A DNA stretch of 64,000 nucleotides from Octopus vulgaris (lineage: Eukaryota), in assembly GCA_951406725.2 (NCBI GenBank), contig OX597815.1, positions 46,004,001 to 46,068,000 of the forward strand, in the 5' to 3' direction. This document shows, piece after piece, positions 449 to 38,896 of the stretch (positions are counted from its first letter, which is position 1; each line of letters begins with the position of its first letter). Position numbers and translations under genes: made by a program. The notes below the pieces were generated by a model. The model did not search any database, had not been told where the DNA came from, and saw only the letters and a list, made by a program, of their open reading frames with translations.

Positions 449-484
<36 letters not shown>

Positions 485-1548
485 CAACATACACAGCAAT
501 ATACAATTCACTATGGAACACAACAGTAAGCAACTCCCTTTTCTAGACATCTTAATGAGAATAGTTAACAACCACATAGAAACAGACATCTTTTATAAAC
601 CCACAGATTCGAAACAATACCTATTATTTAACTCCTGCCACCCCAAACACATAAAAATCAACATACCCTTTAACCTAGCAAAAAGAATCTGCACCATAGT
701 TTCCGATACATACACTCGAGAACATAGACTCCTTGAACTTAGATCTACACTAACTAAAAGACATTACCCAATCTCATTAGTAAATGAAGGCATCAAAAGA
801 GCTAAGGAAATAGATATACAAAGGTTAAGGAAAACTAGCCGAAATACTAAACAAGACTTAAAAATACTCCCGTACATCTCCGCACATAACCCCAGAAGCA
901 ACGAAGCCTTCAACATCATCACCCAAAACCTTCCCATCCTCACAGCAGACAAAACAATGAACAAAATTTTAAGCTCATATAAAATTATAAAAAGCAAAAA
1001 GCAACCCAAGTCACTGAAAAAATATTAACCAGCGCTAGACTTTACCCACTAACAATTGAGCCAAAAGGGACAAAATGTGGACGTTCTAACTGTGGAACAT
1101 ACCCCCACCTTCTGGAGGGTTCAGAATTCCAATTCAAACAAAGATAAATATTTAAGATCAAATCAAATTTCACCTGCGCCTCAGCAAATGTAATCTATGT
1201 CATGACATGCATAGGATGTGGTAAACTATATTGGACAAACAGGAATTTCGCTCCGTCAAAGAATCACCATTCACAAAGAGCAAATCCGTCACCCACAATA
1301 CAGACAGTTAAATGTGAGTGAACACATAGAAAGATGTGCCAGGAATCTTAATCTCAATTTCCAAATATTTCATTTTTACCAATGTTCACAGAACACCACA
1401 ATGCAACAAAAGTTGAATAAAGAGGCATTTTTCATTAATAAATTTCTCCCCCAACTAAATATGAACACACAACTCAATACAGAACACCACTAACTCTTCA
1501 ATTGAAACCACTAAACCCTATACACTTCCTACACCACTCACATCTCTA

Positions 1549-1608
1549 AATCCAGAACTACTTACCTCCCTTACAAATAATCCAGAACTACTTACCTCCC
1601 TTACAAAT
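1549..1608 (+). repeat. 30-bp tandem duplication
   Basis: aatccagaactacttacctcccttacaaat x2. Confidence 0.9.
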
Positions 1609-1664
1609 ACTCTTTTTTCTCAGGAACTGTTAGACCTGACACCGTGTATTAACCGGTGTTGTTC

Positions 1665-1701
1665 AAACGATGAATAATTTTGCCGAAACCATGGTTCGTT
1701 T
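1665..1701 (+). ncRNA. Degenerate hammerhead ribozyme remnant in the PLE tail
   Basis: AAACG-(ATGA)-...GCC-GAAA-CCATGG-TT-CGTTT: stem I AAACG/CGTTT and palindromic stem III are present. CTG of the core and part of stem II are missing. Confidence 0.4.
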
Positions 1702-2109
1702 TGTTCTCTTACTTTATTATCATCTTATAATCATCTCATAATAATGACTTTTATGACTCGTAGTCAATCTAAAGGTATATCTTTGTCGTTACCTGTCATA
1801 AATAACCTTTTTTCTATTTGCAATGTGCATTTTCGTTGATTTTTCATATTTTACCCTTACATTTCCACGTGTATTTTATATTTTCTTTTCGTAACATATT
1901 TCTACTATATATATATATATATATATATTTAAATACTATTGTATTTTACTCAGAAGGTATTGGAATCTTATATGTATACCATTCTGCCTAAATAATGCAT
2001 CTACAAATGCAATATTCCTGCATATCTTACAGCTATTTTCATTCCTTCACTTCACTCTCTATTTCGTATCTTATCTAAATTAACTATTGCTCACCAATTT
2101 TCTCACACC

Positions 2110-18652: not shown

Positions 18653-18831
18653 AGAAATGAAAATAATATTGGTAGTTGTTCAAGATGAGGTGTATACATA
18701 CATACATACATACATACATACATACATACATACACACACATATATGTGTGTGTATATATATGTATATATATACGTACTTCAATTAAATAATAATAAATAA
18801 TATATATATGTATATATATATATATATATAT

Positions 18832-19514
18832 AATGAAAATAGTAATGCAATACGAGAGTATTGCTTTCCCGTAAAGGATAGCCCGTGAGGGTAAAATTAT
18901 ACATATAAAAGTAAATAAATGGCACAACGAAACACCGATATTTACTGGAAAATAGCGAACGTAATAAATACGACGCTAATGTATAGCTTCACTGCGTATG
19001 TACTAGTAAAGATGCGTGTGTGCAACAAACATGAAAAAAATTGTCTTAGCTCTAGGAAGAACATCTGAAAAATGAAAAACTTAGAAACGGATAATGCAGT
19101 ACCGGTTTCAGATTCTTCAAAATACGTTTGCCAACGTATATTTGATTTATCTTCATCAGCTGCATATACCTCGACAATATTTCAAATGTTGCCACATCTA
19201 TGCCAGTACACTCGTCTGAACGCCAAAACGTTAACAGAACGAGAACAGTGAAGAAGTTTCAATGAAAATAGTAATGCAATACGAGAGTATTGCTTTCCAG
19301 TAAAGGATAGCCCGTGAGGGTAAAATTATACATATAAAAGTAAATAAATGGCACAACGAAGCACCGATATTTACTGGAAAATAGCGAACGTAATAAATAC
19401 GACGCTAATGTATAGCTTCACTGCGTATGTACTAGTAAAGATGCGTGTGTGCAACAAACATGGAAAAAATTGTCTTACCTCTAGGAAGAACATCTGAAAA
19501 ATGAAAAACCTAGA
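18832..19514 (-). mobile_element. Partial tandem repeat, 429-bp period (1.6 units), carrying a hammerhead; retrozyme/pLTR-like
   Basis: 18832-19085 recurs at 19261-19514 with about 5 substitutions; the unique middle holds the hammerhead. Confidence 0.85.
19094..19165 (-). ncRNA. Minimal type I hammerhead ribozyme, intact core
   Basis: ATGCAG-CTGATGA-AGAT..TCAAATATACGTT-ggca-AACGTATTTTGA..ATCT-GAAA-CCGG-TA-CTGCAT; GUA cleavage triplet. Confidence 0.9.
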
Positions 19515-19659
19515 GCACAACGCACCACTAGTCTGGGAACCGAATCGATCTTAGAATGGATCTTGCGATCGTGAGTAGCACCGCCCTAACCAGCAGGTAA
19601 CGCACCTTTACATATACATACATTGATAAATAAACAGATACATAAATACATATATACAT

Positions 19660-22255: not shown

Positions 22256-23370
22256 TCAGATCATCCTATAAGTTCTGACCGAATTTTGAATAAAGAAAAC
22301 AAGTGATCAAATTTTATATTCAATTGAAATTTAATCATCAATGTACTTTCCCTGATTATCTATGACTTCCTTCCATCTATTTACAAGCTTTTTAGTCCTA
22401 TCAATATAAAACTCTTTTGGTTTCAATTTAAGAACTCTGAAATGTCAGTTTCGACCTCCTCCTGGCTTGCGAAAGTTATGTTCCCCAAATGATTCTGTAA
22501 GAATTTTTTCCCAACCAAGCTCTTCGATCTTCTGTGATGTGATCTTTGCAGTGTGGGGTCGCACATTGTCCCGATAGAACATCACTCCTTTTCGATTCCC
22601 TAAAGCGGATATTTTTTTTCTTCAAAGCTTGGTTCCCACCAGATTGAGAAAAGAACCTTTTTTCCATGAAGTTCATTCTCTGTTGGGGTTCAGCTTTTTC
22701 CCTTTTACCATACGACGTTTAACATTTCGATAGAAGATCCATTTTTCGTCACCAGTCACAAGTCTATCCAAAAAGGGTGAAATGAGTTCGCGAGAATGGA
22801 GAGAAAAGCAGATGTCAACTCAGGATTTCCGGTTGGTTTCGGACAATTCATGAGGCACTCATCTTCCAAGTTTAGGAACCTTTCCAAGTTGTTGAAGATG
22901 ACGATGAACAGTCGTATGGTTTGAACTAAGCTTTATTGCCAATTCTTCAACTGATAATGCAGGATTTTCTTCAAATAACGCCTCAAGGAGCTTATCATCA
23001 AACCCAACTGGACGTCCTGTTCGATCTTTCTCTTCAAGGCTGAAATCTCCACTTCTGAATTTTGCAAACCATCTTCTGCAAGTTCTTTCATTCACGCATT
23101 CTTTCCCATTAACTGAGTGTATACTTCGAGTCGTTTCGTACTCACAAAGCATCATGTGCCTTAAATGCTCTTTGGATACTTTTATGTTAGAAAGGGTTTT
23201 AATCAAAGAAAATTTAATTCTATTATTCTGTAAAATAATATCTAATTAGTTTAAATGTACACAAATGCATAAAAATAATTTTAAATTCAATTAGATATTC
23301 TAAGATACTATTAAATTTCATTCAATTTTTAAAACAGTTAAAATCGGACAGAACTTATGGGATGACCTGA
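22256..23370 (-). mobile_element. Mariner transposon, internally deleted, both TIRs and TA TSD
   Basis: TIRs tcagatcatcctataagttctgaccga and tcaggtcatcccataagttctgtccga, each flanked by TA. ORF remnant RRWFAKFRSGDFSLEE..R.GRP..HRHLQQLGK..*VPHEL, LVTGDEKWIFY. Confidence 0.92.
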
Positions 23371-37818: not shown

Positions 37819-38120
37819 GTGCTATGTGCTTGAAGCTCTGTCTTTATGTTTAACTTGAATAAAAAAACTAGTGTTTTATTTCACATTGTTTCCTTTCAAT
37901 ATAAGTTAAGAGCGTGTTTTTTTTACGGCACTGCCACCACTATTGTAGTGGCCTGCAGTTATTCTCAGTAATGAATGAGACGAAAGTAATTATTTCTAAC
38001 ATAAGCACGAGACTAGAAATTTGGCGGGAGGAGATAAGTCGATGGAAACTAATCTAGTATTTGACCAATTTTATGGACATCGTGAGGGTGAAACGGGGTG
38101 CTTGGGCCCAGAACATAAAA

Positions 38121-38396
38121 AATCTCCGTGACAGTAACATACTTTTTGACGTAGACAAAGAGAAAAATAATGAATCAACACCACCAGGATTAACTACATA
38201 CGCGTTTCGAGATTAAAGTGTTTAAAAATTTACTTACTTCTCTCTTCAGTGTAGTATTTCCGATTATAAAATTTGAAAGTGCTAGGGTTAAATATGCACA
38301 CGATCGAACGACACGCGAATGTAGTTAATCCTAGTCGTGTTGATTCATTGTTTTTCTCTTTGCCTACGTAAAAAGTATGTTACTGTCACGGAGATT
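38121..38396. repeat. Inverted repeat with ~90-bp arms enclosing a hammerhead
   Basis: aatctccgtgacagtaacatacttttt..cgcgt versus acgcg..aaaaagtatgttactgtcacggagatt. Confidence 0.88.
38193..38255 (-). ncRNA. Minimal type I hammerhead ribozyme, intact core
   Basis: ACTACA-CTGAAGA-GAGA...TCTC-GAAA-CGCG-TA-TGTAGT. Confidence 0.9.
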
Positions 38397-38896
38397 CTTA
38401 CAGTAGTAGAAAAGGAATTTTAAACTCCTATTTCTAAATTCGGTATGTGGTAAAGCAATTAGCTGAACCCTAATTATAATTATGCTTATAATTATAAAAT
38501 ATTTTTACCTATAAAGATTATTTTAACGTACCGATCTACTTGGTAAAATTATTAATTAATTGATTGATTAATAATTAATTAATTAATTTAATTGATAAAT
38601 TTTACCCTTTTATTATTAATGCATAGATAGATAGATTAGTTGATTGATAGACAGACGTAAGTATGAATTTGTGAACGTATTCATATAAAGGCATAGATGC
38701 ATACATACATGTAAGTATGCAGGAACTTATGAATAAATATATTCATTATATTTCTTTATAGACATGTATAGTGTGTATTTTATATATAGTGTGTATTTTA
38801 TATATTTGTAATTTTTTTTATATATCAGCTATAAATATTGAATAAATTAATGTGTACAAATGAATAATTTCAACAAGATTGAAGTTGCACCATTTA

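What the first reader, a model, noticed from the sequence alone, without database searches (positions are those of the whole stretch)
18832..19514. 429-bp partial tandem unit with a perfect hammerhead: candidate cephalopod retrozyme
Seen: a 254-bp segment recurs at a 429-bp period with about 5 differences, so it is recent. There is no ORF. The unique part has a textbook minus-strand hammerhead (6-bp stem I, long stem II, ACCGGU stem III, GUA site at ~19100). Known: animal non-LTR retrozymes are small non-coding tandem repeats with minimal hammerheads that yield circular RNAs. Inference: more than one unit length is what reverse transcription around a 429-nt circle would leave.
Basis: partly seen in the sequence, partly recalled or inferred. 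Interest (0 to 1): 0.8.

Follow-up and report, generated by a model that had tools for sequence, protein, structure and literature searches.

The report
High-copy hammerhead Penelope parasite, 429 nt
This is one copy of an abundant 429-base non-coding repeat family that carries a hammerhead ribozyme motif and is likely copied around the genome by Penelope-like retrotransposons; this kind of element is known from other animals, and no circular RNA is shown here.

Summary
18832-19085 recurs at 19261-19514 with 5 differences, and a type I hammerhead with an intact core lies on the minus strand at 19165-19094 (0 strict hits in 200 shuffles).

Public runs show an abundant family: 1,414 and 970 contigs in two DNA runs, and the same 429-nt head-to-tail joint in 4 of 4 runs laid. 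Two stem II pairs change on both sides. The 3' end runs into (TA)n. The palindromic ACCGGU stem III also occurs in 10 of 79 related Penelope-like (PLE) loci.

Best reading: a non-autonomous, Neptune-type PLE derivative (retrozyme-like), inserted as the ordinary PLE partial tandem of pseudo-LTR plus unit.

The circle inference is not diagnostic. PLEs give the same anatomy from linear multimeric RNA. This locus has one ribozyme, whose stem III likely needs a partner, so it cannot cut out a monomer by itself. No RNA run on record holds it. The element's 5' end lies 14 nt from the predicted cut, a weak hint that cleavage set the template end. The cephalopod origin is likely but not shown. New member of a known kind.

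The parts
18832..19260 (-). Complete 429-nt unit (175-nt ribozyme-bearing part plus 254-nt 3' part) of a non-autonomous PLE-type element
   Evidence: Joint 19260 to 18832, 'goes back 429', in 4 of 4 runs laid; contigs run through from the unit start into the ribozyme; GC 0.36
19261..19514 (-). Upstream 5'-truncated copy (pseudo-LTR); begins 14 nt 3' of where the ribozyme cut would lie; carries no ribozyme
   Evidence: it holds the family allele at 4 of the 5 differing sites
19094..19165 (-). Type I hammerhead motif: 6-bp stem I, intact core, extended stem II, palindromic ACCGGU stem III, predicted cut after A19100
   Evidence: two-sided changes at pairs 19121/19141 and 19125/19136
18753..18831 (.). 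(TA)n-rich microsatellite at the element's 3' end; likely insertion target; hides any target-site duplication
19515..19603 (-). 5' flank resembling the head of a tRNA-derived SINE (recalled, not tested against a library); the element abuts it directly
   Evidence: Sequence; no second copy in the window; no tRNA call
19216..19478 (-). Speculative intron across the pseudo-LTR/unit junction (AG|GTAAG donor at 19478, YAG at 19216); unsupported
   Evidence: Read from the sequence; the donor letter is the family allele, but no spliced joint is listed

Best explanation
The locus is one insertion of an abundant 429-nt non-coding repeat family with a hammerhead motif, likely a non-autonomous derivative of a Neptune-type Penelope-like element that was likely copied from a linear, more-than-unit RNA. 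Inferred steps: a tandem source locus is transcribed; two ribozymes pair through their ACCGGU palindromes and cut, which sets the RNA 5' end; an autonomous PLE protein nicks (TA)n DNA and primes at the fixed unit end (18832); it copies one full unit and 254 nt of the next and stops 14 nt short of the cut site. Five point mutations then accumulated. Shown: anatomy, family, fixed joint, TA flank, ribozyme motif with two-sided changes. Inferred: cleavage, partner, template form.
For: Family: 1414, 970, 65 and 9 contigs laid in runs X1, X4, X5 and X17 (4 of the 20 holder runs); summed depth 10^4 to 4.5x10^5 in the DNA runs. Fixed unit: the joint has depth 2476 (X1) and 1154 (X4), while the lowest-depth long contigs listed have 36-50 and 18-27, so likely dozens of copies share it. 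One template: both copies agree at 10 of 10 polymorphic sites checked; chance about 0.006 if linkage is ignored. PLE type: a core with the GAAACCGGU end occurs in 10 of 79 RT/GIY-YIG loci. In 6 checked it lies 80-201 nt behind the protein match, and 2 of these run into (TA)n about 120-140 nt later. These proteins have the CX4CxxC linker that PMC8557442 ties to Neptune microsatellite bias. A truncated PLE of this kind sits between TA runs at window 482-1907. Structure: unit fold z = -5.2 to -8.8, against -3.4 to +1.4 in 12 control windows. Depth falls about 3-fold between bins 19057-19071 and 19072-19086 in both DNA runs.
Against: No autonomous partner with matching ends was found: the unit does not align significantly to the window's PLE 3' UTR (38 of 500 shuffles score as well) or to 103 fetched loci. 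The depth step is confounded, because depth rises again over 19147-19251 and no pile of ends is listed. A 5' end within about 20 nt of the cut has a 5-10% chance by luck. Outside stem II, variants do not clearly favour the fold: 11 keep, 10 break and 15 are unpaired of 36; 11 of 16 transitions keep, P = 0.16. PMC11167929 found no RNA-seq reads ending at the ribozyme site of an anole PLE. 48 variant rows and 255 loose-end rows were not shown.
Confidence: 0.5

Rival explanations
1. Same family identity, but a true retrozyme cycle: dimeric source loci are cut twice, the 429-nt monomer is ligated to a circle, and a PLE reverse transcriptase copies 1.6 times round it.
For: Size, GC, self-pairing and ribozyme type resemble mussel retrozymes of 350-390 nt that make abundant circles (PMC7229834 sections 14 and 17). 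The circular fold keeps z = -5.5 to -7.0 with the ribozyme arms free. A fixed joint and a single template are predicted equally by this model. PMC4209133 proposes circles as the source of PLE tandems.
Against: One ribozyme at this locus; no multimer seen; no listed contig spans a whole unit. The joint also stands in DNA runs, so its presence in the two 'RNA?' runs says nothing about circles. A rolling template gives no particular reason to stop near the cut. In the 2026 preprint 8 of 9 tested dimers did not cleave.
Confidence: 0.3
2. Two 5'-truncated 3' UTR pieces of an autonomous Neptune PLE, joined at insertion; no independent small element.
For: The 101 nt upstream of the core fall within the 80-201 nt ORF-to-ribozyme distance of related autonomous loci. 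5' truncation is the PLE norm. The 3' part is 1.8-2.7 times deeper than the 5' part in the DNA runs.
Against: The joint recurs at the same base in two organisms at high depth, which random truncation would not give. The only loose end shown at the unit start resembles the start of the 254-nt part, and none of the 22 shown looks like an ORF (read by eye; 255 not shown).
Confidence: 0.12
3. Local DNA-level duplication or satellite slippage of a single inserted unit.
For: The two copies share subfamily alleles, and the region is microsatellite-rich.
Against: The joint is exactly head-to-tail at the family's unit boundary and is shared by many copies.
Confidence: 0.06

Closest known systems
Animal non-LTR retrozymes (Cervera and de la Pena 2020, PMC7229834; Li et al., bioRxiv 10.64898/2026.07.22.740005)
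   Same: Small, non-coding, GC under 45%, canonical type I hammerhead, head-to-tail units, strongly self-paired, high copy, alongside PLEs.
   Different: The unit is slightly above the 170-400 nt of the 2020 paper, though within the 51-972 nt of the preprint. There are only 1.6 units and one ribozyme here. Circles, expression and cleavage are not shown.
Pseudo-LTR of Neptune-clade PLEs (PMC8557442; PMC4209133)
   Same: Partial tandem, 3' end in (TA)n, ribozyme a few hundred nt from the 3' end, same ACCGGU palindrome as 10 of 79 related loci.
   Different: No ORF. The pseudo-LTR lacks the ribozyme. No sequence match to a known or local autonomous element was found.
Non-autonomous PLEs such as Chlamydomonas MRC1 (PMC8557442 passage)
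   Same: Short element that forms pseudo-LTRs and head-to-tail insertions without a coding region.
   Different: Most Chlamys elements lack canonical hammerheads. Their 3'-end match to a partner is known, whereas here it is not.

Membership tests
Non-LTR retrozyme | Type I hammerhead with intact core | tested here: met
   two-sided changes in stem II
Non-LTR retrozyme | Small, non-coding, low-GC unit | tested here: met
   429 nt, GC 0.36; frames of 79 aa or less; no PLE protein hit
Non-LTR retrozyme | At least two consecutive units each with a complete ribozyme (this locus) | tested here: not met
   1.6 units and one ribozyme
Non-LTR retrozyme | Dimers or multimers elsewhere in the genome | tested here: inconclusive
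   Head-to-tail joint is common, but no listed contig spans a unit; no genome held
Non-LTR retrozyme | Highly self-paired unit RNA | tested here: met
   z = -5.2 to -8.8, linear and circular; prediction only
Non-LTR retrozyme | Self-cleavage and abundant circular monomer RNA | not testable with these tools
   Only contigs of runs guessed to be RNA were available
Non-autonomous PLE | Partial tandem forming a pseudo-LTR | tested here: met
Non-autonomous PLE | Multicopy family with a fixed unit end | tested here: met
   dispersal itself is inferred, as no genome was held
Non-autonomous PLE | Sequence similarity to the 3' end of an autonomous partner | tested here: inconclusive
   No match to the window's PLE or to 79 non-host PLE loci; host PLE library not available
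Neptune-type PLE | Microsatellite target | tested here: met
   3' end in (TA)n; octopus Naiads also use (TA)n but lack canonical ribozymes
Autonomous PLE | RT plus GIY-YIG ORF | tested here: not met

The most novel reading that the evidence does not exclude
An abundant cephalopod retrozyme family in which dimer-dependent hammerhead cleavage both sets the 5' end of the pseudo-LTR and yields a 429-nt circular RNA. With hundreds to thousands of insertion ends, it would be a natural test of whether the PLE hammerhead acts in vivo and whether partial tandems come from circles or from linear multimers.
Probability: 0.25. Interest if true: 0.55.

Novelty: new member of a known kind. Interest (0 to 1): 0.3.

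Why it matters
The role of the hammerhead in Penelope-like elements is open: it was dispensable in vitro for an anole PLE, and no RNA ends were seen at its cut site. A small, high-copy, ORF-free family with a fixed unit lets one read the answer from the distribution of 5' ends and from one RNase R experiment. My literature searches listed no paper on a cephalopod retrozyme; the supplement of PMC7229834 could not be read. As a kind of element it is expected in a mollusc-like genome rich in PLEs; a second hammerhead sits in the same 64 kb.

Tried and rejected
No whole genome was held, so no copy census was possible.

Expression: no RNA holder is listed. The two 'RNA?' runs X5 and X17 are guesses and may hold DNA, so their joint and coverage were not used as evidence on expression.

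Collection scans: an exact 24-nt pattern from the unit gave 0 hits in metagenome, prokaryote-genome and viral contigs. A 16-nt ribozyme pattern gave 24 viral loci, none extending much beyond the pattern (at most 28 nt), so these were taken as chance.

Window PLE as partner: alignment not significant, and its 3' UTR is not structured (z = +0.2).

Intron across the junction, as in Penelope and Chlamys-3: no spliced joint listed. Left unsupported; rare forms drop out of contigs.

Whole-unit structure conservation from variants: not significant.

Taxon: PLE hits name Argonauta, Octopus bimaculoides and bivalves; mariner hits name Limulus and Octopus. This is not decisive.

Other scans: ARAGORN found no tRNA in the flank. 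Tandem Repeats Finder does not report the 429 period. Earlier-findings look-ups returned nothing.

Full report
Observation. A 254-nt segment at 18832-19085 recurs at 19261-19514 (period 429) with five substitutions, and has no other copy in the window. The 175 nt between the copies hold a type I hammerhead on the minus strand, 19165-19094: 6-bp stem I, core CUGAUGA, a 4-bp stem II with a long extension, GAAA, ACCGGU, and a predicted cut after A19100. A strict descriptor finds 2 such motifs in the window and none in 200 block-shuffled windows. Rfam gives only a sub-threshold HH9 match. Frames within the element are 79 aa or less, and eight PLE proteins hit only window 492-1460. Read in the ribozyme's sense, the locus is: SINE-like flank, truncated copy (254 nt), full unit (429 nt), (TA)n. 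Two details are less than textbook. The pair closing the core is A-U rather than G-C. Stem III is a six-base palindrome that closes one pair alone but six in a dimer; PMC4209133 (parts 1-2 of 4 read) describes such motifs as dimer-dependent. The locus has one ribozyme.

Family. No genome was held. Twenty of 24 listed runs, from nine studies and four organism labels, hold the stretch; none is on record as RNA. I laid 4 of them on the single unit: 1414, 970, 65 and 9 contigs, with summed depth of 10^4 to 4.5x10^5 in the two DNA runs. The tool warns that this is no copy number; hundreds to thousands of copies is my inference. The joint from 19260 back to 18832 stands in 4 of 4 runs, at depth 2476 and 1154 in the DNA runs, against 36-50 and 18-27 for the lowest-depth long contigs listed. 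Contigs run through from the unit start into the ribozyme. So the 429-nt unit is a family property, not a local accident. Family alleles match the upstream copy at four of the five differing sites, so these are private changes in the downstream copy. Both copies agree at ten polymorphic sites (chance about 0.006 without linkage), which points to one template. With the rate implied in PMC13282606 (passages), the age is about 2.7 My (0.9-6.4).

Constraint on the RNA. None of the 40 variant rows shown falls in the core, stem I or stem III; 48 rows were not shown. In stem II, pairs 19121/19141 and 19125/19136 change on both sides. Equal depth and end distances place all four changes in one X5 contig, and the same changes occur in X1 and X4. 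The second pair could arise by CpG decay. The unit folds far better than shuffles (z = -5.2 to -8.8 against -3.4 to +1.4 in 12 control windows). Over the whole unit, however, variants do not significantly favour the fold: 11 keep, 10 break, 15 unpaired of 36.

Link to Penelope-like elements. The window holds a 5'-truncated PLE at 482-1907 between TA runs; its hits are RT plus GIY-YIG proteins of about 750 aa. Using ten relatives I fetched 79 loci. Ten carry a core with the same GAAACCGGU end. In the six checked it lies 80-201 nt behind the protein match, and two of these run into (TA)n. The proteins have the cysteine linker that PMC8557442 (passages) ties to Neptune microsatellite targeting; the Neptune label rests on this motif, not on a tree. 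No partner with matching sequence was found. PLEs cover 6.83% of the Octopus vulgaris genome (supplement row), but the window's taxon is not established.

Mechanism. Most likely a tandem source is transcribed, paired ribozymes cut and set the RNA 5' end, and a Neptune-type protein nicks (TA)n, primes at the unit end and copies 683 nt. The element's 5' end is 14 nt short of the end a cut would leave (a few bases at the junction could belong to the flank). Depth drops about three-fold just 3' of the cut in both DNA runs. Both hints are weak: the first has a 5-10% chance by luck, and depth recovers 5' of the ribozyme. A circular template explains the anatomy as well and is proposed in PMC4209133 and PMC7229834 (passages and sections 14 and 17). 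It is not required. Partial tandems are the PLE default, and PMC11167929 (parts 1-2 of 4) shows internal initiation on linear RNA with the ribozyme dispensable in vitro; that paper also found no RNA ends at the cut, which tells against my cleavage step too. I put about 0.8 on a non-autonomous PLE-type family, split 0.5 linear and 0.3 circular.

Comparison. It works like a non-LTR retrozyme or a non-autonomous PLE; bioRxiv 10.64898/2026.07.22.740005 (parts 1-3 of 5) argues these are one thing. This locus fails that paper's two-ribozyme test, so I do not file it as an active retrozyme; the family may pass. Searches for hammerhead with cephalopod or octopus (listings only) showed no paper describing this family. 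The supplement of PMC7229834 could not be read, and bioRxiv supplements are closed, so a prior listing is not excluded.

Verdict. Real, well formed and ordinary in kind: a new member of a known class. Interest 0.3; about 0.55 if circles or ribozyme-defined 5' ends were shown.

Noticed in passing
window 38118-38399 (minus strand; hammerhead 38255-38193): A second intact type I hammerhead with a different palindromic stem III (ACGCGU). Its 3' part (38118-38209) has an inverted copy directly upstream (38309-38399) that reaches about 10 nt past the cut site. The whole folds as a long hairpin that would block the ribozyme. It resembles a PLE inverted 5' truncation of another small family.
   Followed up: partly
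window 482-1907 (+): 5'-truncated, frameshifted PLE (RT C-terminus, cysteine linker, GIY-YIG) between TA runs, with a decayed hammerhead at about 1660-1705.
   Followed up: partly
loose ends, X1 at 19120 and X4 at 19064: Diverged relatives seem to have a different stem I and, in one, a non-palindromic stem III, which suggests further subfamilies.
   Followed up: no
loose end, X4 at 19219: The consensus seems to join the region near 19200-19219 to the last 30 or so nt of the unit, possibly a much shorter internally deleted derivative (read by eye).
   Followed up: no
window 19515-19603: A tRNA-SINE-like head (recalled) lies in the same orientation directly 5' of the element, with no SINE remainder at the other end. 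It may be a template jump or a deletion, and could in principle supply a Pol III promoter.
   Followed up: partly
window 22859-23245 (-): Mariner transposase fragment (Mos1 HTH), 69-79% identical to the best hits, the named ones from Limulus.
   Followed up: partly
L026, L027, L028, L034, L049, L068, L100: PLE contigs with terminal repeats, consistent with collapsed tandem arrays of full-length elements.
   Followed up: no
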